From: Candidatus Kaiserbacteria bacterium RIFCSPHIGHO2_02_FULL_49_34
GTDB taxonomy: Bacteria > Patescibacteriota > Minisyncoccia > Phycocordibacterales > UBA918
Direction of reading: 5' to 3'
Length of the DNA stretch: 64,000 nt
NCBI GenBank assembly: GCA_001781205.1
Contig: MFLE01000014.1
Span: 26,107 to 90,106 of the forward strand
This document shows, piece by piece, positions 34,034 through 60,560 of the stretch (position 1 is the stretch's first letter; each line of letters starts with the position of its first letter). Below the pieces are notes generated by a model. It saw nothing but the letters and a program-made list of their open reading frames with translations. It was not told the DNA's origin and did no database searches. Position numbers and translations under genes: made by a program.

Positions 34034-34038
34034 ACTGA

Positions 34039-35412
34039 TTATTTCTTATTTGTAGCATCTGTAGGAAATATGTCATCCAACGTGCCATCACTAAATAATT
34101 CAGAATTACGCATCTCTTCTAACCAGCTCGTATCTCCAGGAATTTTTGAGATAATATCTGCATACGTATACATATTTGAATTACAGCTCTCTCGCTTGCC
34201 GTTTACAAAATGTGTATCTTTAAGCCAAAACAATTCATCACGAGTAAACCTATCTATAAAATGCGGCGAATGCGTTGTGATAAAAATCTGTACTTTGGAC
34301 GCTATGCCACGCAACACCTCTACGTACTTTTCAGTAAGTGATGGATGAATTATTGATTCAACTTCATCAAAAAGCATCACGCTCGGCATTCTATAGCTCC
34401 TTGCAGAGGTATCTAAAAAAATCCAATTTTTAAGGGTTATGAAATAGAGGAGCACTACCGTACCTGCAGAAAGAGTTGCTATGCTCTTCGGCGATGCTGG
34501 TGACTCTATGAGAACTGTGCCTTTCGTGGGGAAGGAGCCCGATGTTGCAATTTCAACTTTTGTAAGAATATTTTCGGTATAAAGTGACAAATCGGAACAA
34601 TAACGCGCAAATGCTTTCTTGTCTCTCTGAATATCAGCGAGAAGATGTATAAACTTTGCTTTACTAAAACTAGATACAGACCAATCCTGTTCTTGTTTAT
34701 TTATTCTCTGCACAACCTGCTCTTGCTCTTCCTCTCCATATTTTTCAGTGACATAATTAAATATTTTGTTCGAACTAAATTCGTTATCGTTATCATCTAC
34801 CCAATTTGTATGGATTCTTTCACTGCATTCTTTATATATATCCATCAAAAACGGATTTCTAATCTCCTTCTCAGTCTCGCGAAGCTCATCTGCATTCTCT
34901 ATATTTTTCTTGAATTCACGCTGATACACCAACTCATTACTCACATTGAGTGCACTTTCTCTCATTTGCGAGACAATACCACTTCTTCTAGTCACTTCAT
35001 TAAAATCAGACTGATCGACTTCTTTCGTAGATTTTTTTCCACTATAGAAAAGTTCATATTTCTTTGAAGATCCTGTTTTTTCTATGGAATTAATAAATAT
35101 GAAGTCAGATATTGACATATGATCTAACTTAATTTTTGCGCTCTCCTCTATGCGATAATATGTTCTGGCTTCGCCTATATTACTCAATGTAATTTTAAAA
35201 TCAGTCTTCTTTTTTCCTGGACCATATGTCACAATATTATCGAAAAAGACATCAGTAAAATCATTACGGACCTCAGCTATATGTGAAAGCGCTTTAAGAA
35301 AGTTAGTTTTTCCGCTAGAATTTCTTCCTGTTATTATATTTATTGGACCAAACTCGCTTTCCACATTAAGCAAATTCCTAAAGTTCCTTATTTCAATATT
35401 TTTGATTTTCAT
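34039..35412 (-). CDS. OLD-family / AAA_15-AAA_21-type ABC ATPase (AriA/AbiLi-like); defence-system component
   Basis: MKIKNIEIRNFRNL...Walker A GRNSSGKTN; ABC signature-like LSAGTVVLLYF; Walker B VMLFDEVESIIHP; H-loop ITTHSP. About 30% GC. Start set to ATG 35412; the track ORF runs to 35472. Confidence 0.7.
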   Translation of the reverse strand: MKIKNIEIRNFRNLLNVESEFGPINIITGRNSSGKTNFLKALSHIAEVRNDFTDVFFDNIVTYGPGKKKTDFKITLSNIGEARTYYRIEESAKIKLDHMSISDFIFINSIEKTGSSKKYELFYSGKKSTKEVDQSDFNEVTRRSGIVSQMRESALNVSNELVYQREFKKNIENADELRETEKEIRNPFLMDIYKECSERIHTNWVDDNDNEFSSNKIFNYVTEKYGEEEQEQVVQRINKQEQDWSVSSFSKAKFIHLLADIQRDKKAFARYCSDLSLYTENILTKVEIATSGSFPTKGTVLIESPASPKSIATLSAGTVVLLYFITLKNWIFLDTSARSYRMPSVMLFDEVESIIHPSLTEKYVEVLRGIASKVQIFITTHSPHFIDRFTRDELFWLKDTHFVNGKRESCNSNMYTYADIISKIPGDTSWLEEMRNSELFSDGTLDDIFPTDATNKK

Positions 35413-35553
35413 AAATTTGAGCAGACCTATGTTTATATGTATAAAATGTACTCCTATATGTAGAAAAGTCAAGTTAAATATCCATATATCAATATTATCA
35501 TTCAGAAATCTTCGTTAAACCGCTGACATGCAGCGTTTTTTGTGGCTCTTCTA

Positions 35554-38073: not shown

Positions 38074-38727
38074 TTAGTCGATGATTTGGAGATTAGTACC
38101 CACTTCGTAGAGGTCAGTACTGTTACCGCCATCAGTTGCCATCTTATTGGTGCCACCCTGGTCACCTGCAGTGTCGCCATAGGCAATACTTTCAAGACGT
38201 GCCGTCATTTCAAACGCAAGTGGTGCATTTGAACATGCGTAGCGGTAAACCATAGTCGTTGATGCAAGAGTACCGGTCGTGAGGGCTGTAGTATCCTGTG
38301 CGGGATCAAGCGGAAGTGCTGCAAGTGGCGAACCGCCAGCAATACCACCAAAATCTACAGGAATCCAACCAAGACCGGTGCCGTCTCCGTTTCCTACTGT
38401 TGTGTCAGCGCTTCCAACATAGGTTACGCCACTAACCGCTGCTCCTGTGATTGGCTTACTAAGATACACTTGCCCTGGCGCTGCATTTGGTGCTGGGAAA
38501 CAGGTGCCGAGCGATGGGTTTGGTGTCACTGTCATATACATCGCAATAGCAGTACGTACTGATGAGAGATCAGAGAGGCGCTGCACGTCACGTGCGCGGC
38601 GGAGTGTTTCCACTGGGTTAATAACAATAACGAGTATGGTCGCGAGAATGGCAATAATCGCGATCACAATGAGGAGCTCGAGCAGGGTGAAGCCCTTGGC
38701 TGTTGAAGTTGATGATGTTGAACGCAT
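38074..38727 (-). CDS. Type IV pilin / pseudopilin (prepilin with class III signal)
   Basis: KGFTLLELLIVIAIIAILATI N-methylation motif, with a Gly/Thr-rich C-terminal domain. Confidence 0.8.
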   Translation of the reverse strand: MRSTSSTSTAKGFTLLELLIVIAIIAILATILVIVINPVETLRRARDVQRLSDLSSVRTAIAMYMTVTPNPSLGTCFPAPNAAPGQVYLSKPITGAAVSGVTYVGSADTTVGNGDGTGLGWIPVDFGGIAGGSPLAALPLDPAQDTTALTTGTLASTTMVYRYACSNAPLAFEMTARLESIAYGDTAGDQGGTNKMATDGGNSTDLYEVGTNLQIID

Positions 38728-38771
38728 AAATATAGATTAATTAATAGTTGCCAGTTCGCGGCAATACAAAG

Positions 38772-38809
38772 AGTATACTACACCTTTCTAAAAATAACCT
38801 GTGGATAAC
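38772..38809 (-). promoter_or_regulatory. Pilin promoter carrying the shared upstream motif
   Basis: On the coding strand: GTTATCCAC, 23 nt, TATACT (plus-strand positions 38801-38809 and 38772-38777), ~45-nt leader. Confidence 0.5.
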
Positions 38810-38897: not shown

Positions 38898-39028
38898 GCC
38901 TGGATCCCGTCAGGATGACAAAAGTTTGATGCAATGTTTAAAATTAATGAATGGTTAAAATCGATTTTAACCATTCATTAATTTTAAACCACATTCCCTC
39001 CTTTTGTCATCCTGACGGGATCCAGCGC
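38898..39028. repeat. Palindromic MITE-like repeat, family 1, copy C
   Basis: gCCTGGATCCcgtcaGGATGACAAAAg ... cTTTTGTCATCCtgacgGGATCCAGc, with a 50-bp perfect central palindrome ttaaaattaatgaatGGTTAAAATCGATTTTAACCattcattaattttaa. Confidence 0.85.
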
Positions 39029-39097: not shown

Positions 39098-40564
39098 TTG
39101 AGGTCAGAAGATATCCACACATCGTTTTTTCGAAATGACGGTATACTAGTCGTGATGAGTTTCTTTGCGCACTTTATACGAGACGAACGGATTACCGCAC
39201 TCCACATTGCAGAAGACGCAGTGTCTGCACTTTCATTTACGCATACCACAAAACAGCTCAGTGCTATCCGCATCACGCGCATCCCCCTTGCCGCAGGCGT
39301 AATTATCGAAGGTCGCGTCGCAGACCCGACGGCACTCTCTCGCGTCTTGCGCGACCTTCGTATCAAAAACAAGGCATACCGCCACGTTGTTGTCGCGCTT
39401 CCGCATGCGGCAATTTTCACCAAAGCAGTTATCTTTCCCGAAACACTCGACGCAGAAAATGACGCCGCACGCCTCCTTGAAACAGCAAACCTTTCACTTG
39501 AGTGGAATATCCCCTTCCATCCTAACGAACGCTTCGCCGATGTTGATATCCTCCATGAACCAGTCTCAGGCATGCATATTCATGCCATTGCAGCCGAACA
39601 TGCCACCCCCTATATTACCGCACTCGAAAACGCCGGCTTCAAACTTGTTGCCCTCGAATCTGAACACGACGCTATTGCACGTGCCGCAGAGCGGGGTGCA
39701 CACGTCATCACGTCCTTTACCAGTCCCACCTACGAAAATATCCTTGCCTGCCGCGACGGCTTTGCCCTCCTCTCAAGTACTCACGCACTGGGCGCATTCC
39801 CCACAAAAACCGCACGAACAAATGCAGTGAAGCGTGCCGCAGAATTTGTCGCATCACGGTTTGGCAAGCGTCCGGTGGTTAAGGTCTTCGAGAAACTCCC
39901 CCTTCTCGAAGAAGTGAAAAAGATTATCGATGCTCGCAACGATATCTCACTCATACCACTCCTTGGTGTCGCACTCCGTGCACGTACCGCACGCCGCGAC
40001 GATGTCGCTGCAAGCCTCCTCCCTATCGGCACGGAAGAAGCCTACGAATACCAAAAACTCGAAGCATTCATCGGCGGACTTGGCACACTTACCCTCCTCA
40101 CCGCACTCATCATTACCGGCGCCGCAATCTCTGCATGGTACGGTGTCCGTACACAGCTCGCGACAATTCCTCGAGGCGACCTCTTCACCGAAACATTCTC
40201 AGTCGACACCGCACTTACGGAAGAGCGTGCAAACTACGAACGATGGAGCGCGGTTATTGCCACCGTTGGCCCCCTTGCAACCGAAGAAACTTCCTTCGCA
40301 CGCATGACCGCCTTCATTCGAACATACGCCATCAGCGGCATCTCAATCCGTGATGTATCTGCCGACGCAACCACCGTTCGTCTTGGCGGCGTCGCTCGTA
40401 GTCGAACCCACCTCAACACATTCCGCGACGCGCTCAAGAGTGCGGAAGAAGTCGCAACCGTAGAACTCCCTATTACCGACGCCGAACTCCGCGGTGACAT
40501 CCCGTTCCAAATGACCATTACCTTTAAGCCTGCTGTTTGGCAATCCTGGGTACCCAATAACTAA
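39098..40564 (+). CDS. PilM-PilN fusion protein (actin-like pilus assembly ATPase-fold domain, TM, periplasmic PilN-like domain)
   Basis: The N-terminal ~320 aa resembles PilM; TM GLGTLTLLTALIITGAAISAWY; C-terminal ~140 aa. Start could be an internal Met near 39155. Confidence 0.6.
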   Translation: MRSEDIHTSFFRNDGILVVMSFFAHFIRDERITALHIAEDAVSALSFTHTTKQLSAIRITRIPLAAGVIIEGRVADPTALSRVLRDLRIKNKAYRHVVVALPHAAIFTKAVIFPETLDAENDAARLLETANLSLEWNIPFHPNERFADVDILHEPVSGMHIHAIAAEHATPYITALENAGFKLVALESEHDAIARAAERGAHVITSFTSPTYENILACRDGFALLSSTHALGAFPTKTARTNAVKRAAEFVASRFGKRPVVKVFEKLPLLEEVKKIIDARNDISLIPLLGVALRARTARRDDVAASLLPIGTEEAYEYQKLEAFIGGLGTLTLLTALIITGAAISAWYGVRTQLATIPRGDLFTETFSVDTALTEERANYERWSAVIATVGPLATEETSFARMTAFIRTYAISGISIRDVSADATTVRLGGVARSRTHLNTFRDALKSAEEVATVELPITDAELRGDIPFQMTITFKPAVWQSWVPNN

Positions 40565-40565
40565 C

Positions 40566-40685
40566 TTCTTTCAAAATGGGATGAAATTGCGTTGGTTGGA
40601 GCAAAATTTTGACGGAGCCGTACCCAATGTACGGTGAGGGCAAAATTTTGCGAAACCAATGCAAGTTTGCCCATTTTGAAAGAAG
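40566..40685. repeat. MITE-like repeat, family 2, copy 1 (perfect 16-bp terminal inverted repeats)
   Basis: cttctttcaaaatggg ... cccattttgaaagaag; internal conserved core gccGTACCcaatGTACggtga flanked by the self-complementary gcaaaattttg/caaaattttgc. Confidence 0.8.
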
Positions 40686-40699
40686 CATTAAAGCAAAAT

Positions 40700-41281
40700 A
40701 TGACACACACATCTCTCACACGTTCTATCCTCATCCGCATCACGGTTCTCGTGCTGCTTCTGTGTGTCATTGTGGGTGCAAAAGTATACGCGACACGCGA
40801 GATGAACATCACCCTGCAAGATATTCGCGCACACTACGAACAGGTTGCAAGCATTCGTGCCGCACGTGATTCCTCTATCGCGTTTCTCTCTTCGTTTACG
40901 GCAATCGCGGGCAACGAATCACGGATTCGCGCTGCCTTCCCTTCTGCCGACTACATCGTTCCTTTCCGTGACGCGGTCGAGGATGCTGCAGCACGCACCG
41001 ATGCAACCGTCACTGCAACCTACAGCAACCCGTCAGCGACGAATTTTACCCTTCCTGAACATCCGCAGGGTACCGCACGCGAACAGGTCTACCGCATTGA
41101 GACAACCTTTGTCGTTGAAGGCGATGCTCGTGCACTCGAACGCCTCCTCGCTGAGCTTGAAGCGCTTCCATACTACTTCACGGTCACGGGTGTAAAAAGC
41201 ACAAGTGCACAGCAAGACGGATGGGAGGCTGGCACGCGCACCACGATAACCGGCGTCTTGTACGCCATTCACGAAATATAG
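40700..41281 (+). CDS. PilO-like pilus assembly protein (hypothetical)
   Basis: Single TM (ILIRITVLVLLLCVIVGAKV), then a periplasmic domain; gene order after pilM/N. The track ORF starts at 40634. Confidence 0.4.
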   Translation: MTHTSLTRSILIRITVLVLLLCVIVGAKVYATREMNITLQDIRAHYEQVASIRAARDSSIAFLSSFTAIAGNESRIRAAFPSADYIVPFRDAVEDAAARTDATVTATYSNPSATNFTLPEHPQGTAREQVYRIETTFVVEGDARALERLLAELEALPYYFTVTGVKSTSAQQDGWEAGTRTTITGVLYAIHEI

Positions 41282-41284: not shown

Positions 41285-41866
41285 ATGCATACTCGACCTT
41301 TCTACACCACCCAGACGTTCTACATCGTCATGACGACGACGTTTGTCTTGGTGCTTGCACTTATTTTCACCACCACAACGCGCGACCTTCGCGCCATCAT
41401 CGAGCAAACCTTCGTGGCCGAAACAGGCACCGTCCAAACTCTTACCGTTGAGAATGAGCACTACCTCGCGCTCAAAGCAAAACTGAGCCTCCCCGACATT
41501 GCACAGAGAGAAGCCCCCATTACTCCTGACGAAGCACAAGGAGCTGCTACTTCCACCGAAGAAGCTATCAGTACTACAGCACCTACACTCAATCTCCTCG
41601 ATTACTCCCTCGCCGTCCGCAATGGCACAACCATCCAGGGTCATGCTGGCAATCTTGCCACACTCCTTGAAGGAGCAGGTTTCGCAAAAGCAGCAACCGG
41701 CAACGCTTCACCGCAAACAGTCACCGAAATCTACATCAATGCTGACATTCGCACTGAGGTCTTTGCACTTCTCAAAGCCGCCGCTCCCGAGCTTCTCGCC
41801 GAAGCACAACTCATGCAAAACAATCCAACCAGCGCCGATATCGTTATCATCCTCGGTAGCAACTAA
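41285..41866 (+). CDS. LytR_C-domain membrane protein
   Basis: C-terminal LAVRNGTTIQGHAGNLATLLEGAGF...DIVIILGSN resembles the LytR C-terminal domain. Confidence 0.5.
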   Translation: MHTRPFYTTQTFYIVMTTTFVLVLALIFTTTTRDLRAIIEQTFVAETGTVQTLTVENEHYLALKAKLSLPDIAQREAPITPDEAQGAATSTEEAISTTAPTLNLLDYSLAVRNGTTIQGHAGNLATLLEGAGFAKAATGNASPQTVTEIYINADIRTEVFALLKAAAPELLAEAQLMQNNPTSADIVIILGSN

Positions 41867-44350: not shown

Positions 44351-44481
44351 GCTGGATCCCTCTTGGATGACAAATGTTAGGTGCTATGTTCAAAAGAGAT
44401 TTATGGTTAAAATCGATTTTAAACTCTTATTAATTTAGAGCACACTACCCAAAATTTGTCATCCAGGAGGGATCCGGAGTC
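44351..44481. repeat. Palindromic MITE-like repeat, family 1, copy D (inside the umuD-like/polymerase operon)
   Basis: gCTGGATCCctcttGGATGACAAAtg ... aaaTTTGTCATCCaggagGGATCCgGAGtc; core ttatGGTTAAAATCGATTTTAAac. Confidence 0.8.
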
Positions 44482-44496: not shown

Positions 44497-44871
44497 TTAG
44501 TTCTCATACTTCCGAATACAAGCAATTACCTTACCTTCTATATTCAAAGACTCCTGCGGGATAAGCTTCGGATACATCTCATTCGCTGCTTCCAGATACT
44601 GTTCGCCTCGACCGTTCTTACGTAGAAATCGTACCACATAGTCGCCATCAATTTCTGCCACCACAATATCCCCTGCGCGCACACTTCGCGTGCGCTCAAT
44701 TAAAAGATAATCACCCGACGCAACCTGCGTATCAAGAAGCGCCTCACCTTCCATTCTCATAAGATACGTCGCATCTGGATCAGCCAAAAGCCACGCCTCA
44801 AGCGTCCCCACATCACTCCCATCATCAACAGGTGAACCAAAACCAGCCATGGAGCAAGTATACCACATCAA
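44497..44871 (-). CDS. S24 peptidase-domain protein (UmuD-like, no HTH)
   Basis: A Ser-Lys dyad context (CSMAGFGSP...RFLRKNG) and the LexA/UmuD C-terminal domain pattern; located upstream of the Y-family polymerase. Confidence 0.65.
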   Translation of the reverse strand: MMWYTCSMAGFGSPVDDGSDVGTLEAWLLADPDATYLMRMEGEALLDTQVASGDYLLIERTRSVRAGDIVVAEIDGDYVVRFLRKNGRGEQYLEAANEMYPKLIPQESLNIEGKVIACIRKYEN

Positions 44872-44875
44872 AAAA

Positions 44876-44903
44876 TCCCCTGGAGGGGATTTTTAAATGA
44901 TAC
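44876..44903. terminator. Terminator after surface protein gene A
   Basis: aaaaatcccctggaggggattttt. Confidence 0.7.
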
Positions 44904-44910
44904 TTGCATT

Positions 44911-46752
44911 TTAATCAGAGGTCATGACACGGCTGCCTGCAGATCCATTACAGAAATTATTTCCAACACCACAGGAGACAGCAACGAATATACCTCCACC
45001 ATATGTGACGCCCCTCCAGTTATTTTGAGCGGCTGAGGTTCGAGATGTCCAAGTGATGCCGTCTGGTGAAGTCATGACACGGTTGCCAGCACCAGTACGT
45101 GACACTGCAACAAAGAGGTCTTGTCCATAGGTGACGGATTGCCAGCCATTGTCTGGAGCACTTGTGCTAGTTGTCCAAGTGATGCCGTCTGGTGAAGTCA
45201 TGACACGGTTGCCAGCACCCGTAACAGCAACTGCGACAAAGAGTCCGTTGCCGTAGGTGACGCCGACCCAGCTATTATCTGCAGCACTGGTTTGAGTTGT
45301 CCAGGTGATGCCGTCGGGTGAGGTCATGACGCGATCGCCGGTACCGTTACTAGACACTGCGACAAAGAGTCCGTTGCCGTAGGTGACGGAGCTCCATTGG
45401 TTAGTTGTAGCACTGGTACGGGAAGTCCAAGTGATGCCGTCGGGTGAGGTCATAACACTGTTCACCGTACTGTCGTTAGACACTGCGACAAAGAGTCCGT
45501 TGCCGTAGGTGACGCCGACCCAGCTATTATCTGCAGCACTGGTTTGAGTTGTCCAGGTGATGCCGTCGGGTGAAGTCATGACGCGATCGCCAATACCATT
45601 CCCTGCAACGGCGACGAAGAGACCATTGCCATAGGTGACGGAGCCCCAGGCATTATCTGCAGCGCTGGTTTGGGATGTCCAGGTGATGCCGTCAGGTGAG
45701 GTCATGACGCGGTTGCCGAAGCCTGTGCTTGCAACTGCGACAAAGAGTCCGTTGCCGTAGGTGACAGAGTTCCAGAAGTTATCCGCAGCGGAGACACGAG
45801 ATGTCCACTCAACGCCTGCTTGCGCCTTCGCAATCACCGCAATGGTGTTTGCTCCTGTGCAGGTACCCTTCACTCCACTTGCAGGAATAGCAATGTTCCA
45901 GTAAAGGTTTGCGGAGAGCTCGTTAGATTCGTCGGTACGGAGGAGGATGTTTCGTTTTGCTGAAGCAGGAGTATCGGTAAGAACAATTGATGTGGCATGA
46001 TCGACATCGGTGAGCGCCCACGCCTGTGTTGAAGTAGCGAGTGTACCGAGTGCGCTGCAGCCCATATTCGAACCAGAGAGCTGCACATCAGCCTTTGTGT
46101 TGCCTCGCTGTGTGATGACTGTCTCTACGTTTGTGGTTGATGATGAAACTTCACCAAGTGAACGAGTGCCGTAATCAATAACATCGGGGAGATTGAGAGC
46201 AAGAAGTGAGTTAACTTCTACTGTTGCAGAAAGAGCACCTTGTGTTGACGCAAAATCTTGAACAGTAACATATGCGGTCCAACTATCGCTTGTATAGGCA
46301 CTTGCTGCATCAGTTGCATCAATCCAGTAAGCAAGCGGCACTTCACAGTTGTAGGCGATTTCTGTGTCGGAGCCTTCGGAGTAGTTCGTGGTACAAGAAT
46401 TAATTACGTAGCAGTCGTTGTTGTCGGCGGCGCAGGTGTTGGTACTGCTTGTTTTGTGGAAGACAAGAGCGAGTGTTGATGAAGCAATATCGTTTTCTCC
46501 GTTTGCATCAGAGATTTGTCCGTTGATGTGAATAGTTCTGTCAGTACCGACGTTCGGGAGAATACCTGAGCTTGTTAAATCATCTGTGCCGTACGCGGTT
46601 GTGGCGATACGGATGGTGTCGACGGTTGGTGCAACGTTAATAATTTCTGCAGTGGTTGCGACATCGGCTGCGCCAGTGTAGCGGATGATGATTCCTACGA
46701 TGAGGAGGAATGCGACGACAATCAAGGTGCCGAATATTTTTATATTTGTCAT
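44911..46752 (-). CDS. Membrane-anchored surface protein with 8 tandem ~38-aa Asp-box-like (SPDGITWT) repeats, paralog A
   Basis: N-terminal MTNIKIFGTLIVVAFLLIVGIIIRYTGA anchor; ~300-aa Thr/Ser-rich domain; repeats GNRVMTSPDGITWTsrTSAadNnWxSVTYGNGLFVAVs. The track ORF runs to 46824. Confidence 0.7.
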   Translation of the reverse strand: MTNIKIFGTLIVVAFLLIVGIIIRYTGAADVATTAEIINVAPTVDTIRIATTAYGTDDLTSSGILPNVGTDRTIHINGQISDANGENDIASSTLALVFHKTSSTNTCAADNNDCYVINSCTTNYSEGSDTEIAYNCEVPLAYWIDATDAASAYTSDSWTAYVTVQDFASTQGALSATVEVNSLLALNLPDVIDYGTRSLGEVSSSTTNVETVITQRGNTKADVQLSGSNMGCSALGTLATSTQAWALTDVDHATSIVLTDTPASAKRNILLRTDESNELSANLYWNIAIPASGVKGTCTGANTIAVIAKAQAGVEWTSRVSAADNFWNSVTYGNGLFVAVASTGFGNRVMTSPDGITWTSQTSAADNAWGSVTYGNGLFVAVAGNGIGDRVMTSPDGITWTTQTSAADNSWVGVTYGNGLFVAVSNDSTVNSVMTSPDGITWTSRTSATTNQWSSVTYGNGLFVAVSSNGTGDRVMTSPDGITWTTQTSAADNSWVGVTYGNGLFVAVAVTGAGNRVMTSPDGITWTTSTSAPDNGWQSVTYGQDLFVAVSRTGAGNRVMTSPDGITWTSRTSAAQNNWRGVTYGGGIFVAVSCGVGNNFCNGSAGSRVMTSD

Positions 46753-46760
46753 ATGTGCAT

Positions 46761-46797
46761 AGTATACCTTGATTTGTGAAATCAGATAGTGGACAAC
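46761..46797 (-). promoter_or_regulatory. Promoter of paralog A carrying the shared motif
   Basis: On the coding strand: GTTGTCCAC, 22 nt, TATACT, 8 nt, ATG. Confidence 0.5.
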
Positions 46798-46837
46798 CTC
46801 ACAGGAACTAGCACTACCATTCATGTGTATTAAAAAA

Positions 46838-46864
46838 TCCCCTGGAGCGGGATTTTTGATTAGG
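46838..46864. terminator. Terminator after surface protein gene B
   Basis: aaaaatcccctggagcgggattttt. Confidence 0.7.
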
Positions 46865-46872
46865 CCTTATTA

Positions 46873-48693
46873 TTAATCAGAGGTCATGACGCGGTTGCCG
46901 GTGCCGTTATATGAAACTGCAACAAAGAGTCCGTTATTGTAGGTAACTGAGACCCAACCATTATTTGCGGCGCTGGTACGAGACGTCCAAGTGATGCCGT
47001 CAGGCGAGGTCATGACGCGGTTGCCGGTGCCAGTGTTAGAAACTGCTACGAAGAGGCCGTCGCCGTAGGTAACTGAATTCCAGTTATTGGCAGCAGCACT
47101 CGTGCGGGAGGTCCAAGTGATGCCGTCAGGCGAGGTCATGACGGTATCATTCGTGCCCGTGAAATCAGAAACTGCAACAAAGAGTCCGTTGCCGTAGGTG
47201 ACACTGAGCCAGTTGTTATCTACAGCACTCGTGCGGGAGGTCCAAGTGATGCCGTCTGGTGAAGTCATGACACGGTTACCAGTACCGTTATACGAAACTG
47301 CTACGAAGAGACCGTTGCCGTAGGTGACGGAGCGCCAGTTGATATCTACAGCGTTGACGCGAGACGTCCAAGTGATGCCGTCAGGCGAGGTCATGACGCG
47401 GTTGCCGGTGCCAGAGTCAGAAACTGCTACGAAGAGACCATTACCGTAGGCGACGGAGCGCCAGAAGTTGTCTGCTGCTGAAGTTTGGGATGTCCAAGTG
47501 ATACCGTCTGGTGATGTCATGACGCGGTTACCAGCACCAGAGTCAGAAACTGCTACGAAGAGACCGTTACCGTAGGCGACGGAGTTCCAGCTGTTATTTG
47601 CAGCACTCGTGCGAGACGTCCAAGTGATGCCGTCAGGCGAGGTCATGACGCGGTTGCCGGTGCCAGTGTTAGAAACTGCTACGAAGAGGCCGTCGCCGTA
47701 AGTGACGGAGCGCCAGTTGTTATCTACAGCACTCGTACGAGACGTCCACTCAATACCTGCTTGCAACTTTGCAATCACTGCAATTGTGTTTGCACCAGTA
47801 CATGTCCCCTTCACGCCAGTTGAAGGAATAGCAATGTTCCAGTAAAGGTTTGCGGAGAGCTCGTTAGATTCATCAGTACGAGGTGCAACGTTTCGTTTTG
47901 CAGGAGTGAGTGTTCCTGTAAGTATAGTTGACGAAGCGTGGTTGATATCAGTAAGCGCCCAGGCTTGTGTATTCACAGGTAGCGTACCAAGTATACTACA
48001 GCCCATAACATCACCAGAGACTTGCACATCAGCTCTTGTGTTGCCACGTTGCGTGATGACGGTTTCAATGTTTGTTGTTGATGACGAGACTTCACCAAGT
48101 GAACGAGTGCCATAATCGATAGCATCGGGGAGATTGAGAGCAAGAAGCGAGTTCACCTCGATGGTTGCTTGTAGTGCTCCTGATGTTGAAGTCAAATCAG
48201 CGACGCTGACGTATGCAGTCCAATTGTCACTAGTGAATGCCGACCCTGCATCGGTTGCATCTATCCAGTACGCGAGCGGTACTTCACAGTTGTAGGCAAT
48301 CTGTGTGTCATCGCCGTCGGCGTAATTTGTATTGCAGGTTGTAATGCGATAGCAGTCGTTGTTGTCGGCGGCACACGCACCTGTTGCTGAGGTTTTATGA
48401 AAAACGAGACTGATAGTGCTTGAGGCAATGTCATTTTCTCCGTTTGCGTCGCTCATGACACCATTGATATGAATGGTTCTATCGGTACCTACGTTCGGGA
48501 GAATACCTGAGCTTGTTAAATCATCTGTGCCATACGCAGTGGTTGCAAAACGAATCGTATCAACGGTTGGTGCGGTATTCTGAATTTCTGCAGTTGTTGC
48601 GACATCGGCTGCGCCGGTGTAGCGGATGACGATTCCTACGATGAGGAGGAATGTGACGGCGACGAGTGTGCCGAATATTTTTATATTTGTCAT
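46873..48693 (-). CDS. Membrane-anchored surface protein with 8 tandem Asp-box-like repeats, paralog B
   Basis: Near-identical N-terminus and architecture to paralog A, indicating a tandem duplication. The track ORF runs to 48762. Confidence 0.7.
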   Translation of the reverse strand: MTNIKIFGTLVAVTFLLIVGIVIRYTGAADVATTAEIQNTAPTVDTIRFATTAYGTDDLTSSGILPNVGTDRTIHINGVMSDANGENDIASSTISLVFHKTSATGACAADNNDCYRITTCNTNYADGDDTQIAYNCEVPLAYWIDATDAGSAFTSDNWTAYVSVADLTSTSGALQATIEVNSLLALNLPDAIDYGTRSLGEVSSSTTNIETVITQRGNTRADVQVSGDVMGCSILGTLPVNTQAWALTDINHASSTILTGTLTPAKRNVAPRTDESNELSANLYWNIAIPSTGVKGTCTGANTIAVIAKLQAGIEWTSRTSAVDNNWRSVTYGDGLFVAVSNTGTGNRVMTSPDGITWTSRTSAANNSWNSVAYGNGLFVAVSDSGAGNRVMTSPDGITWTSQTSAADNFWRSVAYGNGLFVAVSDSGTGNRVMTSPDGITWTSRVNAVDINWRSVTYGNGLFVAVSYNGTGNRVMTSPDGITWTSRTSAVDNNWLSVTYGNGLFVAVSDFTGTNDTVMTSPDGITWTSRTSAAANNWNSVTYGDGLFVAVSNTGTGNRVMTSPDGITWTSRTSAANNGWVSVTYNNGLFVAVSYNGTGNRVMTSD

Positions 48694-48701
48694 ATATGCA
48701 T

Positions 48702-48739
48702 AGTATATCTCCACTTTGCGAAAACACGAAGTGGATAAC
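48702..48739 (-). promoter_or_regulatory. Promoter of paralog B carrying the shared motif
   Basis: On the coding strand: GTTATCCAC, 23 nt, TATACT, 8 nt, ATG. Confidence 0.5.
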
Positions 48740-48789
48740 GCTTGGTTTGACAGACTCACCACAAGTCGCTTCTTTCTTCACGGGTACTT

Positions 48790-48818
48790 TTGCATTCTAA
48801 TTTTCAAACAGGTATACT
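48790..48818 (+). promoter_or_regulatory. lepB promoter (leaderless)
   Basis: TTGCAT, 17 nt, TATACT, 6 nt, ATG 48825. Confidence 0.55.
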
Positions 48819-48824
48819 GCCTAC

Positions 48825-49424
48825 ATGGAGAATGTTGTACACAATGCGCCGCAATCGGCGCGCCGTGAGTCTTTTGGCGAAACGGCTCGCTTCGTCGCGA
48901 CAGCGATTATTGCGATTGTGCTCATTCGCACGTTTCTTGCGTCACCGTTCATCGTCGAAGGCGCGTCGATGGACGCGACCTTCCACGATAACGACTACCT
49001 TATTGTTGATAAACTTTCCTACCGCTTTATTGAACCACAGCGTGGCGATATTGTCGTCTTCCGCTACCCACACAATCCTTCAATCCATCACATCAAGCGC
49101 ATTGTTGGTATGCCTGGCGACACCATTTCCGTACACGATGGCAAGGTCACTGTTTCGAACGTACAATTTAAGGATGCTACCTTTGAGGAGACCTACGTGT
49201 TGCCTGGCAACAATCTCATGCTACTGAGCGATAGTCGCACGCTTGGCGAGAATGAATATTATTTCATGGGCGACAATCGCGACAACAGTCTCGACTCGCG
49301 CCGATATGGTGCGGTTTCGGGTGATTTTATTTCAGGACGTGTCGTGCTACGCCTCTTCCCTTTCGACATGGTAGGACTCTTCCCTGGTCGTGTTACACAC
49401 TACACGCTAACAACCTCACAATAA
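48825..49424 (+). CDS. lepB: Signal peptidase I
   Basis: GASMDATF (Ser box), KRIVGMPGDT, GDNRDNSLDSR. Confidence 0.85.
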   Translation: MENVVHNAPQSARRESFGETARFVATAIIAIVLIRTFLASPFIVEGASMDATFHDNDYLIVDKLSYRFIEPQRGDIVVFRYPHNPSIHHIKRIVGMPGDTISVHDGKVTVSNVQFKDATFEETYVLPGNNLMLLSDSRTLGENEYYFMGDNRDNSLDSRRYGAVSGDFISGRVVLRLFPFDMVGLFPGRVTHYTLTTSQ

Positions 49425-51405: not shown

Positions 51406-52632
51406 CTAACGAACGGCACCCACAAGCTGATAAATCGGCAAGAGTACCGCAAGCGCAATCGCACCTACCACGAGTCCGAGAATAACAAGCATGATTGGCT
51501 CAATCAGTGAGGTAAGTCGCTTAAGACGCTCGTCAATGTCTCGTTCGTAGAAGTCAGCGACGGACTTGAGTGTATCGGCAAGCTTACCCGTGCGTTCACC
51601 AATCGCGAGAAGTCCAATAAAGAGCTTCGGGAAATACTGCGACTCTGCACTAAATGCGGTTGCAATTGGCTGCCCCGCCATCACTGCGTCTTTGATACGG
51701 AGGAGTGCTGCATTATATACTGCATTGCCACCTGCACGCCCGGCGAGCGTAAGTGCATCGAGGATACTCACACCACTTGGCAACAGCGTGGCGAGTGTAC
51801 GGGTAATACGTACGGTGATGGTTTTGCGAACAATATCCTTCGTGAGCGGCGCACGGACAGCGACCGTGTCGAATACATGACGCCCTCGGTCTGTTTTTAA
51901 AGCCCAGACAATCGTCGCAATGAGTGCAACGAGCACCACAGCATCGAGTGTGTAGCTGTACGTGAGTGTGTCAGAAATGCTTACCAGAAGACGTGTAATG
52001 AAGGGGAGCTCAACTTGCGCATCGGTGAAAATCCTTGAGAGACGCGGCACCATAAACACAATAACCAGGAGTGATACAAGAATCGAACCTGTCACCACCA
52101 CGAGCGGATACATGAGCGCCGAGCGCACTTTGCCGCGAAATTCATGCGAACGCTCGACATAATCAGCAAAGAGCATGAGTGTTTGATCAAGCTGTCCAGA
52201 ACGTTCACCTGCCTCGAGCATACCGAGAAACATCGGTGGGAAATGCTTTTCATACGGACGAAACGCTGCGGTGAACGAGCTGCCGCCACGAATAGAGGTA
52301 AGCACCGCACGGAGCATATCTTGCGTGATGTGCTTTTCGGTATCTTCGATAATAAGCGCAAGCGCTTCCGTTGCTGGCACACCCATACGAAGTGAGGTGG
52401 CAAGGTTTCGTGCAAAAAAGAGAACATCTTCAAGCTCAATGCGTTCAAAAAGGCGAATATCGGAAAGTCCGCGCGCATGTGCATCCTCTTCGATATTCAT
52501 CGGCTTAAGCCCTTTGCTCAAAATATGGTCAAGCACTTCCCCACGCCCCTTTGCAGAAAACACCCCTTTCACCAAAACACCCGCAGCATCATAGGCGGTG
52601 TAGTTATAGATGGTGAGTTGTTTCTTTTTCAT
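51406..52632 (-). CDS. pilC: Type IV pilus / T2SS platform protein PilC/GspF
   Basis: Two GspF repeats; typical three-TM topology. Confidence 0.85.
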   Translation of the reverse strand: MKKKQLTIYNYTAYDAAGVLVKGVFSAKGRGEVLDHILSKGLKPMNIEEDAHARGLSDIRLFERIELEDVLFFARNLATSLRMGVPATEALALIIEDTEKHITQDMLRAVLTSIRGGSSFTAAFRPYEKHFPPMFLGMLEAGERSGQLDQTLMLFADYVERSHEFRGKVRSALMYPLVVVTGSILVSLLVIVFMVPRLSRIFTDAQVELPFITRLLVSISDTLTYSYTLDAVVLVALIATIVWALKTDRGRHVFDTVAVRAPLTKDIVRKTITVRITRTLATLLPSGVSILDALTLAGRAGGNAVYNAALLRIKDAVMAGQPIATAFSAESQYFPKLFIGLLAIGERTGKLADTLKSVADFYERDIDERLKRLTSLIEPIMLVILGLVVGAIALAVLLPIYQLVGAVR

Positions 52633-52670
52633 AGTTGTGTTTTAGGAACACGTAATCTAAACCGAGTGTA

Positions 52671-52790
52671 ATTCTTTCAAAATTGAGTGCAGTTGTGCTG
52701 ACTGGAGGGAGCGAGTGACTGAGCCGTACCTAAGTACGGTGAAGAAATGAGTGACTGAAGTCAGTACAAATGTGCCAATTTTGGAAGAAT
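52671..52790. repeat. MITE-like repeat, family 2, copy 2 (abuts the pilB stop codon)
   Basis: attctttcaaaattgag ... ccaattttggaagaat TIRs (14/16 match); core gccGTACCtaaGTACggtga. Confidence 0.75.
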
Positions 52791-54463
52791 TACTCTTGGA
52801 CTACACGTAGGACTTCCTCAATCGTCGTAACCCCCCTCTCGACTTTCTGCAATCCATCTTCAAACATTGTTGTCATACCGCCTTTAATTGCTTGTTTACG
52901 AATGACTGCAGCACCTGTTTGTTTCTGGGCAAGTTCGCGGAGCTCGTCATTCATTGCCATAATTTCAAAGACCGCAACCTGTCCAAGGAACCCACTGCCG
53001 CCACAGACAGAACATCCTTTGCCGCGATATAGAGTTTCGGGAACCGTTTTAATATGGGTATCTCCAAGCGCCTTTTTCTGTGCGGTTATCGCGCGTTTAA
53101 TTTCGGGAGAGATTTTATACGAATAAATACAGGTTGGGCAAATTTTACGTACCAGTCGTTGCGCGACAACCGCATTTATCGTCGACGCAAGCAGGAATGG
53201 CTCGACACCCATATCAACAAGTCGAGGCAGTGCTGACGGCGCGTCGTTGGTGTGGAGTGACGAGAGCACGAGATGTCCGGTAAGCGCAGCATGCACGGCA
53301 ATATCAGCAGTCTCTTCGTCGCGGATTTCTCCCACCATGATAATGTCAGGGTTTTGACGCAAGAGTGAACGGAGTCCGTTAGCAAAGGTAATGCCAGCGC
53401 GCGCGTTGACCTGTGTTTGGTTCACGTGGGGAAATTCATACTCGATAGGATCTTCGATGGTGGTAATATTTACCTTTGGAGAATTAAGTTTATGCAAGAT
53501 AGCATAGAGGGTAGTGGTTTTACCGTGCCCCGTTGGTCCGGTGACCAAAATCATGCCGTGTGGTTTATGTACTTCTGCCTCAAGAAGTGCTTCTTGCACG
53601 GGTGCGAGACCAATGTCGCGGAACGTGATAGGGCGCGATGTTGATCGAAGCAAGCGCATTTCTGCCTTTTCACCATGAAGCACCGGCATAATGTTCACGC
53701 GAATATCAATAGTGCCTGCGGCGTCAGCATTTGCACGGAAACGTCCATCTTGCGGCGCATTATGTTCATCAACTTGGAGGTTGGCGATAACTTTGATACG
53801 TGCAACCAGTGGTGCAGAAAATGATTTCGGAAACGAGGCGATTTCTTGCATAATACCGTCGATACGGGCACGTACTACAAGCATGTTTTCGAGAGGCTCG
53901 ACATGAAGGTCGCTCGCACCAAGTGTAATAGCGTGCTCGAGCAACGCATCGAGTGTTTCAATAATTGACGCACTTTCGCCATCTTGCGCCTCGACTGCAG
54001 CACGATGTGCGTCGAACACAACTCCCTGTGCCGCGCGGTATTTTTTGAGCGCATACGCCACGGATGACATCGTCACCACGGCCGCATTTACCCACTTCCC
54101 TGTCATTGCGCGAACTTCGGCAATGGTATCCGCATCACCCGGGTCAACCATACCGAGCGTCACGGTCGTGTCGTCTTCGGCAGTAATGAATACTCTGTGC
54201 GTTTTAATAAAAGCTTGGGGCAAACGCATGAGCGCGTCGTCCTCTGTCTCGCTTCGCTTTGCATCAAAAATTGGCACTTCGTAGTATGTGGCAAGCACTT
54301 CAGCAAGGTGTGCTTCTGAAATTTTACCCAATGAAATAAGAGTATCAAACGGCGACTTCCCTTGCTTTTTCGCTTCATCACGAGCGAGAGAAAGATCATC
54401 CTTCGTAACAAGTCCCGATGCAATAAAAAGAGAGTCGAATGTTTCTTGAGAAAGGTGCATATG
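52790..54463 (-). CDS. pilB: Type IV pilus assembly ATPase PilB/GspE
   Basis: GSPII_E N-domain; Walker A VTGPTGHGKTTTLYA; Asp/His boxes. Start set to ATG 54463 with TATACT 8 nt upstream. The track ORF runs to 54532. Confidence 0.85.
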   Translation of the reverse strand, partial: HMHLSQETFDSLFIASGLVTKDDLSLARDEAKKQGKSPFDTLISLGKISEAHLAEVLATYYEVPIFDAKRSETEDDALMRLPQAFIKTHRVFITAEDDTTVTLGMVDPGDADTIAEVRAMTGKWVNAAVVTMSSVAYALKKYRAAQGVVFDAHRAAVEAQDGESASIIETLDALLEHAITLGASDLHVEPLENMLVVRARIDGIMQEIASFPKSFSAPLVARIKVIANLQVDEHNAPQDGRFRANADAAGTIDIRVNIMPVLHGEKAEMRLLRSTSRPITFRDIGLAPVQEALLEAEVHKPHGMILVTGPTGHGKTTTLYAILHKLNSPKVNITTIEDPIEYEFPHVNQTQVNARAGITFANGLRSLLRQNPDIIMVGEIRDEETADIAVHAALTGHLVLSSLHTNDAPSALPRLVDMGVEPFLLASTINAVVAQRLVRKICPTCIYSYKISPEIKRAITAQKKALGDTHIKTVPETLYRGKGCSVCGGSGFLGQVAVFEIMAMNDELRELAQKQTGAAVIRKQAIKGGMTTMFEDGLQKVERGVTTIEEVLRVVQE

Positions 54464-54562
54464 CCAACAGTATACGTCATTTTCAAAAAAACTATCTGTG
54501 GACTTCCCTCCCCGTTCGGGAAAATTTTGCAAAGTAAAAAGGCCATCCGTGGCCCTTTGTCG

Positions 54563-59351: not shown

Positions 59352-59783
59352 GTGCGCATGAAGCAGAGCGAAACTCATACTGAAGTTCCCGCACCTACAC
59401 GCGTCGGTCGCGGCTCGTCGGGGCTAGGGCTTTTTGCAGAAACGTCAATTGCAAAGGGCGGTTTCATTATTGAATATACGGGCGAGCGCATTACCGTCGA
59501 TGAGGCCGATATGCGTGGCGGACAGTACCTTTTTCAGGTCACGGACACTCTCACCATTGATGGTCGTGACCGCTCTAATAAGGCCCGCTACATCAACCAC
59601 TCCTGCAAACCAAACGCCGAAGCCGAACATCTCGAAGACGGTGACCGTATCTTCATCCGCGCCAAAAAGTCCATCAAACCCGGCGAAGAAATCACCTACC
59701 ACTACGGCAAAGAATTCTTCGAAACCTACATCAAACCCAAAGGCTGCCGCTGCATAAAATGCGCCACACCCGGAAAGATATAG
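59352..59783 (+). CDS. SET-domain protein (lysine methyltransferase-like)
   Basis: RYINHSCKPN and GEEITYHYG SET motifs; C-terminal Cys cluster CRCIKC (post-SET-like). Confidence 0.8.
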   Translation: MRMKQSETHTEVPAPTRVGRGSSGLGLFAETSIAKGGFIIEYTGERITVDEADMRGGQYLFQVTDTLTIDGRDRSNKARYINHSCKPNAEAEHLEDGDRIFIRAKKSIKPGEEITYHYGKEFFETYIKPKGCRCIKCATPGKI

Positions 59784-59786
59784 AAA

Positions 59787-59812
59787 AACGACCTTTAAAG
59801 GTCGTTTTGTGT
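59787..59812. terminator. Bidirectional terminator
   Basis: aaaaacgacctttaaaggtcgtttt. Confidence 0.75.
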
Positions 59813-59813
59813 T

Positions 59814-60161
59814 TCAGGCAATGCAAATATTTTTACATTCTGCTTCGTAGAGAGGAGCAAGGGATTCCATGGCTTTGACTACCTTTTTGAATTCTTTGCC
59901 CTTCTTGGTGAGTGAGTATTCGACGCGTGGCGGAAGTTCGGCAAATACGACACGTTCGATGAGTCCTTCGAGCGCAGCGCGGTCGAGTTTTTGTGAGAGC
60001 GTCCGGCTTGAGATGCCGGAAAGTTCTTTATGAAGCTCAGAAAATCGCTTCGTGCCCTCAAGAAGCGCACGAATAATAAGGATGAGCCAAAAATCCCCCG
60101 CGACACGTGCAACACGTGACGTAGGACAATCAATACACACTGCAGGCATTTTTTCTTGCAT
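59814..60161 (-). CDS. HxlR-family winged-helix transcriptional regulator
   Basis: CPTSRVARVAGDFWLILIIRAL...FSELHKELSGISSRTLSQKL...RVEYSLTKKG. Confidence 0.8.
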   Translation of the reverse strand: MQEKMPAVCIDCPTSRVARVAGDFWLILIIRALLEGTKRFSELHKELSGISSRTLSQKLDRAALEGLIERVVFAELPPRVEYSLTKKGKEFKKVVKAMESLAPLYEAECKNICIA

Positions 60162-60181
60162 ATGCAGAAGCCTAGCACACT

Positions 60182-60466
60182 TTACAAAGGAAAGGAATAG
60201 ATATTTTTAGCCATATCGGTACCTTTGCTTCTTGCAGAGAGACCTTTTTTGGAGTATAACGAACCTGCACCATCAACCATTGGAGATTGTGTATGTACAG
60301 CAGCAGATATCCTCTTGCATGCTTCATGCAGATAGCTCGTCACACCCGTGAAAAACGAATGGCGGTAAATACCCGCAAACGCAAGCGTCAAAGCATAGCA
60401 ACGCGCGAGCGGTATCAGCGGCGACGCGCCGCACATCGATAAACCTTCCTGTTCTTGCTCCTTCAT
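60182..60466 (-). CDS. Hypothetical protein (94 aa)
   Basis: ORF only; 20 nt downstream of the HxlR gene. Confidence 0.25.
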   Translation of the reverse strand: MKEQEQEGLSMCGASPLIPLARCYALTLAFAGIYRHSFFTGVTSYLHEACKRISAAVHTQSPMVDGAGSLYSKKGLSARSKGTDMAKNIYSFPL

Positions 60467-60518
60467 ACACCGCTGCGCACACGCGTAGCGGTTTTACTTT
60501 GCAGCACACACAAAAAAA

Positions 60519-60549: not shown

Positions 60550-60560
60550 GAACTGATATG

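What the first reader, a model, noticed from the sequence alone, without database searches (positions are those of the whole stretch)
46761..48739. Shared upstream motif GTT(A/G)TCCAC-N22/23-TATACT in front of a type IV pilin gene and both tandem surface-repeat protein genes
On the coding strand, the pilin gene at 38074-38727 and the two paralogous surface-protein genes (starts 46752 and 48693) each have the 9-mer GTTATCCAC or GTTGTCCAC. It ends 23, 22 and 23 nt upstream of a TATACT -10 hexamer. That places it at about -32 to -40, directly abutting the -35 position.

In the two surface-protein genes TATACT is 8 nt before ATG (leaderless). The pilin has a ~45-nt leader. A fixed-phase upstream element common to a pilin and two putative adhesins suggests co-regulation by one transcription factor or an alternative sigma factor.
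Basis: seen in the sequence. Interest (0 to 1): 0.65.

Follow-up and report, generated by a model that had tools for sequence, protein, structure and literature searches.

The report
DnaA-box-like element before pilus promoters
The shared upstream motif is real: it is a conserved promoter element with the same sequence as the binding site of the replication initiator DnaA. It sits in front of type IV pilus genes across the ultra-small Patescibacteria, hinting that pilus production is tied to one regulator, possibly DnaA itself.

Summary
The window comes from a Candidatus Kaiserbacteria-like genome (Patescibacteria/CPR). TCCAC-N22-23-TATACT occurs five times against 0.02 expected. Besides the pilin and the two surface-protein genes, it precedes the PilM-PilN gene and the pilB-pilC pair.

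From 28 T4P-linked sites in about 20 Patescibacteria genomes the consensus is aG-TTATCCACA-g, the canonical DnaA box. It lies upstream of 16 of 57 T4P genes against 5 of 225 others (p~1e-8), and is almost absent from pilin genes of other phyla.

The -10 hexamer and the T-rich spacer are generic to this lineage's mostly leaderless promoters; only the box is specific. Box-to--10 distance is about 22 nt in Kaiserbacteria, where there is no -35. Elsewhere it is about 30 nt, with TTGACA in between. That argues against an alternative sigma factor and for a DNA-binding regulator.

A metagenome scan found the same architecture before lexA, recA, mraZ, dnaA/dnaN, envelope genes and in a putative phage. 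DnaA is the best candidate but is untested. The box at the surface-protein genes is lineage-specific.

The parts
38800..38808 (-). Box TTATCCACA (a perfect DnaA-box sequence), 22 nt upstream of the pilin -10
   Evidence: The box and its 21-22 nt spacing are conserved in Kaiserbacteria relatives L088, L090 and L091 while the spacer sequence diverges.
38772..38777 (-). TATACT -10 hexamer of the pilin promoter, followed by a 44-nt leader containing a conserved hairpin
38074..38727 (-). Type IV pilin gene (prepilin N-terminal methylation motif)
   Evidence: Pfam N_methyl; NCBIfam IV_pilin_GFxxxE
39111..39119 (+). Box ATATCCACA before the PilM-PilN gene, divergent from the pilin box; the two boxes with their flanks form an imperfect inverted duplication
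   Evidence: inverted repeat I3. L088 has a perfect inverted duplication that includes the box.
39142..39147 (+). TATACT -10 hexamer of the pilMN promoter, 4-7 nt before the start codon (GTG 39152 or ATG 39155)
39155..40564 (+). PilM-PilN fusion gene, heading a cluster with a weakly GspM/PilO-like ORF (40634-41281) and a LytR_C protein (41285-41866)
   Evidence: Pfam PilM_2 with a weak PilN match
54497..54505 (-). Box AAGTCCACA before pilB
   Evidence: Conserved as TCCACA-N22-TATACT in the Kaiserbacteria relative L001.
54469..54474 (-). TATACT -10 hexamer of the pilB promoter, 8 nt before the ATG
51406..54460 (-). pilB (T2SSE/MshEN ATPase, 52790-54460) and pilC (T2SSF, 51406-52632)
   Evidence: Pfam
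48730..48738 (-). Box TTATCCACT before surface-protein gene 2
48702..48707 (-). TATACT -10 hexamer, 8 nt before the ATG of surface-protein gene 2
46873..48693 (-). Surface-repeat protein gene 2: N-terminal membrane anchor and EPTP/DUF6242-type beta-propeller repeats
   Evidence: Pfam; homologues
46788..46796 (-). Box TTGTCCACT before surface-protein gene 1, with spacing one nt shorter
46761..46766 (-). TATACT -10 hexamer, 8 nt before the ATG of surface-protein gene 1
44911..46752 (-). Surface-repeat protein gene 1, tandem paralogue of gene 2
   Evidence: Pfam. The pair is absent from the syntenic position in L088 and L090.

Best explanation
The motif is the local form of a Patescibacteria-wide upstream promoter element. 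Its consensus, aG-TTATCCACA-g, is the sequence of a high-affinity DnaA box.

A sequence-specific DNA-binding protein, most likely the replication initiator DnaA acting as a transcription factor, binds it and influences RNA polymerase at ordinary housekeeping-sigma promoters. In this Kaiserbacteria-like genome the box is centred near -39 and takes the place of a missing -35, a class-II-activator-like geometry. It is found at five promoters: pilA, pilMN(O), pilBC and two lineage-specific surface-protein genes. These promoters would therefore be expressed together, on command of that protein. In most other Patescibacteria the same box sits about one helical turn further upstream, just before a normal TTGACA -35.

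Shown: the element, its specificity for these promoters, its conservation, its geometry, and the kinds of genes it precedes.

Inferred: that a protein binds it, that the effect is activation, and that the protein is DnaA.

The confidence given (0.55) is for the whole statement, including DnaA as the factor. That the element is a real, conserved protein-binding regulatory site of these promoters I put at about 0.9.
For: 1. Non-randomness in the window. There are 5 composite sites against 0.02 expected. All five lie at T4P or surface-protein promoters. None of the other 12 leaderless-type promoters in the window has TCCAC at that position.

2. The five promoters lack both a -35 and the TGG extended -10 common in housekeeping promoters here. 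They therefore look factor-dependent.

3. Conservation. The box precedes the main pilin gene in about 16 other Patescibacteria loci, pilB in about 8 and PilM in 2, always in the same orientation. ATCCAC lies upstream of 16/57 T4P genes against 5/225 others outside the window and its nearest relative, p=1e-8. It precedes 14/74 Patescibacteria pilins against 1/89 pilins of other phyla.

4. Footprinting within Kaiserbacteria. The box and its 21-22 nt spacing are kept at pilA in four lineages while the spacer diverges. Where palindromic insertions split the pilA/pilM intergenic region, the box is present twice, once per promoter.

5. Site matrix. Positions not fixed by the search are strongly conserved: T1 82%, T2 89%, A3 75%, and flanks a, G and g about 60% each. 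Position 5 is the only variable core position (C/A), as in TTATNCACA.

6. Gene-blind metagenome scan. The spacer peaks sharply at 29-32 nt (67/122), with TTGACA 6-8 nt after the box. Downstream genes include lexA x6, recA, mraZ x3, dnaA, dnaN, plus envelope and surface proteins. The contigs are mostly CPR-affiliated (54 against 10 best matches).

7. Known DnaA regulons include dnaA, the ftsL/mraZ promoter and DNA-repair genes (PMC8203912).

8. No DNA-binding regulator gene is linked to the T4P clusters. DnaA is present in Patescibacteria (PMC12102498).
Against: - No binding data exist and no transcription starts are mapped. The -10 assignments are by consensus only.
- I could not obtain a dnaA/oriC region or a DnaA protein that is demonstrably from Patescibacteria, so I could not check that DnaA in this phylum uses this box.
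- DnaA usually acts through several boxes. Most sites here are single boxes with strict orientation and position, which is more typical of a dedicated activator.
- The scan pattern was itself a perfect DnaA box. The dnaA/dnaN/origin hits are therefore expected from any phylum, and some are clearly not CPR (L099, L110).
- Some hits are phage promoters, which could equally point to a general host factor.
- At the surface-protein genes the box is poorly conserved between Kaiserbacteria: degenerate in L085, inverted in L081 and L084, absent in L087.
- Activation rather than repression is inferred only from promoter weakness and geometry.
Confidence: 0.55

Rival explanations
1. The same cis-element is bound by a dedicated, still unidentified Patescibacteria transcription factor whose site merely resembles a DnaA box. 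Spo0A boxes resemble DnaA boxes in this way in Bacillus (own knowledge).
For: Orientation and distance to the -10 are strict within a lineage. Most sites are single boxes. The targets are functionally coherent T4P and surface genes in the window.
Against: No candidate regulator gene is linked to T4P clusters in 38 loci or found in the window. The site is identical to the DnaA box in the full 9-mer and in the flanks, and shares its degenerate position. The wider target set (lexA, recA, mraZ, dnaA, dnaN) looks like a DnaA-type regulon. A phylum-wide motif needs a phylum-wide factor in genomes that have few regulators.
Confidence: 0.27
2. The box is recognised by RNA polymerase itself, as a lineage-specific UP-like or extended upstream element read by the alpha C-terminal domain or an extra sigma-A domain. 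It would simply mark strong promoters, which phages copy.
For: The position at -43 to -52, directly upstream of the -35, is where UP elements lie. A putative phage contig carries at least five such promoters.
Against: Only about 2% of non-T4P promoters carry it. It is absent from ribosomal-protein and rpoB promoters in L081 and L085. It is G+C-containing and sequence-specific, unlike A/T-rich UP elements. It can replace the -35 at a different distance in Kaiserbacteria.
Confidence: 0.08
3. The box is the -35 element of an alternative sigma factor dedicated to pilus and adhesin genes.
For: The five window promoters lack a normal -35 and share a fixed 22-23 nt phase.
Against: The -10 is the same TATACT used by housekeeping genes. 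A 22-nt gap is too long for -35/-10 recognition. In other lineages a canonical TTGACA-N17-TATAAT lies downstream of the box, and the distance varies from 21 to 32 nt.
Confidence: 0.03
4. The motif is a chance match, or a leftover of the tandem duplication of the surface-protein genes, with no function.
For: The 9-mer alone is only marginally enriched. The two surface genes are paralogues with near-identical sequence from the -10 onward.
Against: The composite occurs 5 times against 0.02 expected. Three sites are at unrelated T4P genes. The element is conserved across the phylum. Upstream of the -10 the two paralogues have diverged, except at the box.
Confidence: 0.02

Closest known systems
DnaA box and DnaA acting as a transcription factor (E. 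coli dnaA, nrdAB, uvrB; B. subtilis dnaA, sda, ftsL operon; Caulobacter gcrA, ftsZ, podJ)
   Same: The 9-mer consensus TTATCCACA is identical and has the same degenerate position 5 (PMC8203912). The G...G flanks match those of E. coli R1 and R4 (own knowledge). The wider target set found here (dnaA, dnaN, mraZ/ftsL operon, recA, lexA) overlaps known DnaA regulons.
   Different: Type IV pilus genes have not been reported as DnaA targets; the 2021 review does not mention pili or competence, and searches found nothing. Sites here are mostly single, strictly oriented and phased to the promoter, and in Kaiserbacteria they replace the -35. DnaA binding is not demonstrated.
Class II (about -41.5) and class I activator-dependent sigma-70 promoters, such as CRP/FNR or PhoB pho-box promoters
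   Same: The box is centred near -39 at promoters without a -35, or near -48 just upstream of a -35. The two positions differ by about one helical turn.
   Different: The site is an asymmetric 9-mer, not a dyad or a direct-repeat pair. The factor is unknown. Transcription starts are inferred, not mapped.
Regulons that couple pilus or competence genes to one factor: CtrA-pilA in Caulobacter, ComK or ComX/SigH-comG in Firmicutes, Sxy-CRP in Gammaproteobacteria (own knowledge)
   Same: One cis-element is shared by the pilin, assembly-platform and ATPase operons.
   Different: The motif sequence is unrelated. None of those regulators was detected near the clusters. Here the element also precedes replication, repair and division genes in related organisms.

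Membership tests
DnaA box (DnaA-binding site) | 9-mer matching TTATNCACA, consensus TTATCCACA | tested here: met
   The 28-site matrix gives TTATCCACA, with C/A at position 5. The window sites score 9/9, 8/9, 8/9, 7/9 and 7/9.
DnaA box (DnaA-binding site) | Bound by DnaA domain IV | not testable with these tools
   Needs EMSA, DAP-seq or ChIP. No verified Patescibacteria DnaA sequence could be retrieved.
DnaA box (DnaA-binding site) | The same box type is used in clusters at oriC or the dnaA promoter of the same organism | tested here: inconclusive
   No dnaA or oriC lies in the window or in the Patescibacteria loci. Origin-like clusters next to dnaA-dnaN occur among the metagenome hits, but their taxonomy is unknown or not CPR.
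DnaA box (DnaA-binding site) | Targets overlap known DnaA regulons (dnaA, dnaN, division operon, DNA repair) | tested here: met
   lexA x6, recA, mraZ x3, dnaA and dnaN lie downstream of box+promoter in mostly CPR-affiliated contigs. Compare PMC8203912.
Activator-dependent sigma-70 promoter (class II-like) | Regulator site overlapping or abutting the -35 position at a promoter with a poor -35 | tested here: met
   The box spans -43..-35 relative to the inferred start. The hexamers at the -35 position are AGATAG, ACATCG, AGGTTA and TTCGTG. There is no TGn extended -10.
Activator-dependent sigma-70 promoter (class II-like) | Transcription depends on the factor | not testable with these tools
   Needs reporter assays or in vitro transcription.
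Alternative sigma factor promoter | Its own -10 and -35 elements at a fixed spacing of about 15-19 nt | tested here: not met
   The -10 is the housekeeping TATACT or TATAAT. The gap is 21-23 or 28-32 nt, and a TTGACA -35 lies between box and -10 in the long form.
UP element | A/T-rich tract at -40 to -60, present at strong promoters generally | tested here: not met
   The box is a specific G+C-containing 9-mer, is present at about 2% of non-T4P promoters, and is absent from ribosomal and rpoB promoters.
Leaderless mRNA promoter | -10 hexamer about 5-10 nt upstream of the start codon, no Shine-Dalgarno | tested here: met
   This holds for pilMN, pilB and both surface genes, and for 13 other window genes. 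The pilin has a 44-nt leader. 5' ends are not mapped.
Type IV pilus gene set | Prepilin with N-methylation motif, PilM/N platform, PilB ATPase, PilC platform protein | tested here: met
   Pfam N_methyl, PilM_2 (plus a weak PilN match), T2SSE+MshEN and T2SSF; NCBIfam.

The most novel reading that the evidence does not exclude
In Patescibacteria the replication initiator DnaA has been recruited as the master transcription factor of the type IV pilus, acting through single, promoter-phased DnaA boxes. These pili are thought to serve host attachment and DNA uptake in these epibionts. DnaA would control the pilus genes together with lexA, recA, the mraZ division operon and lineage-specific adhesins. 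Surface attachment and DNA or nucleotide scavenging would then be coupled to the replication state of the cell. Their phages would exploit the same boxes.
Probability: 0.45. Interest if true: 0.85.

Novelty: new variant of a known kind. Interest (0 to 1): 0.7.

Why it matters
Patescibacteria make up a large share of bacterial diversity. They have tiny genomes and few recognisable regulators, and they depend on type IV pili for their epibiotic life. How they regulate those pili is unknown.

A phylum-wide cis-element in front of pilA, pilB and pilM gives a concrete, testable handle on that regulation. If the binding protein is DnaA, pilus production, and probably DNA uptake, would be tied to replication control. 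That would be a new role for one of the most conserved bacterial proteins, and an example of regulatory economy in minimal genomes.

The motif also gives a practical way to predict co-regulated surface proteins, which are candidate adhesins, in uncultivated lineages. It may also help to recognise phages that infect them.

Tried and rejected
- **T-rich TTTTnGAAA spacer.** I first took it for part of the specific motif. Aligning 33 Kaiserbacteria leaderless promoters showed it is generic: T at -15 in 78%. It also occurs at a box-less second ATPase promoter (17143).
- **dnaA/oriC search.** I looked in the window by Pfam on all 62 ORFs and in all loci by tblastn. There was none in verified Patescibacteria sequence. 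Origins turned up only in metagenome contigs of unknown or non-CPR origin.
- **Linked regulator gene.** Clustering proteins from 38 loci found only a stand-alone CheY-like receiver and a sensor-like protein, with no DNA-binding output domain. Relaxed Pfam and NCBIfam searches of the window's unannotated ORFs found nothing.
- **Surface-protein orthologues.** I fetched them expecting conservation. The box was degenerate, inverted or absent, so this part of the claim is weakened.
- **P0002 look-up.** It returned nothing.
- **Rfam scan of 20 metagenome loci with no ORF downstream of the box.** It gave no RNA gene at the right position.
- **RecA homologue search, meant for taxonomy.** It gave only two named Patescibacteria relatives, and the genomic context turned out to be phage-like.
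- **Other motifs compared from memory.** CodY-box, ComK-box, cin-box, Spo0A-box, MraZ-repeat and LytTR motifs do not fit the conserved core.
- **Literature.** Searches found no prior description.
Full report
**1. The observation**

They are the only matches in the window. They end 23, 22 and 23 nt before a TATACT hexamer. That hexamer is 8 nt before the ATG of each surface-protein gene and 44 nt before the pilin ATG. The 9-mer alone is only marginally enriched: 3 observed, 0.87 expected, and 4 of 100 shuffles reach 3.

**2. More sites than reported**

Printing the context of every TATACT showed two further promoters with the same architecture. One is at 39111-39119(+), ATATCCACA. The other is at 54497-54505(-), AAGTCCACA.

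- Pfam identifies the downstream genes as a PilM-PilN fusion (39155-40564) and the PilB ATPase (52790-54460), which is followed by PilC (51406-52632).
- The reduced composite TCCAC-N22-24-TATACT occurs 5 times against 0.02 expected, with a maximum of 1 in 200 dinucleotide shuffles.
- Every one of the five sites lies at a type IV pilus or surface-protein promoter.

**3. Generic features and specific features**

The window is from a Patescibacteria genome. The closest relative is a Candidatus Kaiserbacteria MAG, with 87% PilB identity.

- TATACT is enriched genome-wide (35 against 14 expected). It usually sits 4-11 nt before start codons.
- In 33 such promoters from the window and four Kaiserbacteria relatives, the spacer T-tract is common: T at -15 from the hexamer in 78%. 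So is GG just before the hexamer.
- Leaderless starts, the TATACT hexamer and the TTTTnGAAA-like spacer are therefore lineage habits.
- TCCAC at -28..-24 from the hexamer is seen only at the T4P and surface promoters, plus one site just upstream of a pilin gene in L087.
- The five promoters have no recognisable -35 and lack the TGG extended -10.

**4. Conservation**

- In pilB-anchored loci from about 38 Patescibacteria genomes, the box precedes the main pilin gene in about 16 loci. It also precedes pilB in about 8 and PilM in 2. It is always on the coding strand.
- Outside the window and its nearest relative, ATCCAC lies upstream of 16/57 T4P genes against 5/225 others, Fisher p=1e-8.
- In pilB loci of other phyla, only 1 of 89 pilin genes has it, against 14 of 74 in Patescibacteria.
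- A matrix of 28 sites gives aG-TTATCCACA-g. Positions 1-3 and the flanks were not fixed by the search, yet they are 60-89% conserved. Position 5 is the only variable core position, C or A.

This is the DnaA-box consensus TTATNCACA/TTATCCACA (PMC8203912).

**5. Footprinting within Kaiserbacteria**

Syntenic relatives were found through PilM-N homologues.

- They keep TGTGGAYAAY at 21-22 nt from the pilin -10, while the spacer sequence diverges.
- L090 and L091 have a short pilA/pilM intergenic region with a single box.
- The window and L088 have regions expanded by palindromic insertions and carry two boxes, one per divergent promoter. In L088 this is a perfect inverted duplication.
- This argues that both promoters need a box nearby.

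**6. The surface-protein genes**

- They are tandem paralogues. Their sequences are nearly identical from the -10 onward but diverged upstream, except at the box.
- They are missing from the syntenic position in L088 and L090, between the S24 and S26 peptidase genes.
- Their orthologues elsewhere in Kaiserbacteria have a degenerate box (L085, TATCTACA), an inverted one (L081, L084) or none (L087).
- Their membership in the regulon is therefore plausible in this genome, but it is lineage-specific and rests on less evidence than for pilA, pilM and pilB.

**7. Geometry**

- The distance from the end of the box to the -10 is 21-23 nt in Kaiserbacteria and a few others. It is 28-32 nt in most lineages.
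- In the long form a TTGACA-like -35 lies 5-8 nt after the box.
- With the -10 at -12..-7, the box centre is near -39 or near -48, about one helical turn apart.
- This fits a DNA-bound factor touching RNA polymerase. It does not fit an alternative sigma factor.

**8. Gene-blind scan**

I searched the metagenome collection for AGTTATCCACAG-N14-32-TATAAT.

- The spacer shows a sharp peak at 29-32 nt (67/122), with TTGACA in place.
- Only one hit preceded a canonical pilin.
- Recurrent targets were LexA (6), MraZ (3, with the known GTGGG repeats after the -10), a conserved TM-helix family (4), RecA, MscL, HPF and many signal-peptide proteins. True dnaA and dnaN genes also appeared.
- Proteins on these contigs match my Patescibacteria reference loci far more often than loci of other phyla, 54 against 10.
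- The RecA contig and its relative look like phage genomes. One carries at least five box-TTGACA-TATAAT promoters.
- Several short-spacer hits are genuine origins, with 3-7 boxes next to dnaA-dnaN.

So the element is not exclusive to T4P genes. In the genomic neighbourhoods sampled it is about 14-fold more frequent at T4P promoters. Phylum-wide, it also marks replication, repair, division and envelope genes.

**9. Which protein binds it**

- No DNA-binding regulator gene is linked to the T4P clusters.
- DnaA is present in Patescibacteria (PMC12102498).
- The site is indistinguishable from a high-affinity DnaA box.
- DnaA is known to regulate dnaA, the ftsL/mraZ promoter and DNA-repair genes elsewhere.
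- I therefore favour DnaA, at about 45-55%.
- I could not retrieve a verified Patescibacteria dnaA/oriC region, and nothing here shows binding.
- A dedicated factor with a DnaA-box-like site remains a serious rival.

**10. Novelty**

Searches found no report of this motif, nor of DnaA control of pilus genes. The 2021 review of DnaA's transcriptional roles does not mention pili or competence.

I class the finding as a new variant of a known kind: a DnaA-box-type operator used in a new, promoter-phased way for a new class of targets.

Noticed in passing
window 472-598, 38900-39025, 44353-44475; L087 ~13295-13415; L081 ~9780-9895: A family of ~125-nt palindromic MITE/REP-like elements. The termini are CTGGATCC...GGATGACAAAAG / CTTTTGTCATCC...GGATCCAG and the core is ATGGTTAAAATCGATTTTAACCAT. 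The copy between pilA and pilMN is a perfect nested palindrome: a 54-bp core plus 25-nt arms.
   Followed up: partly
window, whole (e.g. 16607, 23046, 31096, 37932, 44862, 48813, 59345): Leaderless-type promoters are the rule. TATACT is 2.5-fold enriched and lies 4-11 nt before the start codon of at least 17 genes. There is a T-tract at about -17..-13 from the hexamer and GG just before it, and little -35 signal.
   Followed up: yes
window 38728-38771 (-); L088, L090, L091 pilin leaders: The pilin 5' leader carries a conserved hairpin (ATTGCC-N5-GGCAAT, about -6 kcal/mol) followed by an A/T-rich stretch. There is no covariation, so structure cannot be separated from sequence conservation.
   Followed up: partly
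window 17158-18888 (+): A second, more divergent T2SSE/MshEN ATPase, preceded by an unannotated 157-aa ORF (16619-17092). Its promoter has the generic T-tract but no box, so not every pilus-type ATPase belongs to the set.
   Followed up: partly
window 44497-49424: The two surface-protein genes are inserted between a umuD-like S24 peptidase/Y-family polymerase pair and the signal peptidase gene lepB (S26). The syntenic relatives L088 and L090 lack them.
   Followed up: yes
window 683-718 (+), gene ~725-1189: TTAGTCCACC-N25-TATAAT lies before a secreted Gmad2 Ig-like domain protein. This is a weak, off-phase candidate sixth member.
   Followed up: no
window 33329-35472 (-): An AAA_15/AAA_21 ATPase next to a DUF4276 protein. 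The pair looks like an anti-phage or abortive-infection module.
   Followed up: no
window 59352-63665: A SET-domain protein next to an HxlR-type regulator, followed by SpoVR and a DUF444 (YeaH-like) protein. This is an unexpected stress-module remnant in a reduced genome.
   Followed up: no
L213 5380-6000 and 9929; L122; L134: Putative phage contigs (DnaB-like helicase, primase, RecA, methylase, endolysin-type glucosaminidase) carry several aaGTTATCCACAgg-N8-TTGACA-N17-TATAAT promoters, including a divergent cluster.
   Followed up: partly
L027 ~6415-6480: Four tandem ATTCCAC heptamers lie immediately upstream of the perfect box at a pilin promoter. This suggests multiple binding sites for the same factor.
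   Followed up: no
L134, L155, L165, L183, L192; L045, L067 (just after the -10): A recurrent AAAGGTCGA motif near the predicted 5' end of transcripts from box promoters in several Patescibacteria-like contigs. Its function is unknown.
   Followed up: no
L003-L033 (22 loci): A stand-alone CheY-like receiver (~128 aa) and a sensor-like protein recur next to Patescibacteria T4P clusters. L084 has a receiver gene directly after a surface-protein homologue. The window has none nearby.
   Followed up: no
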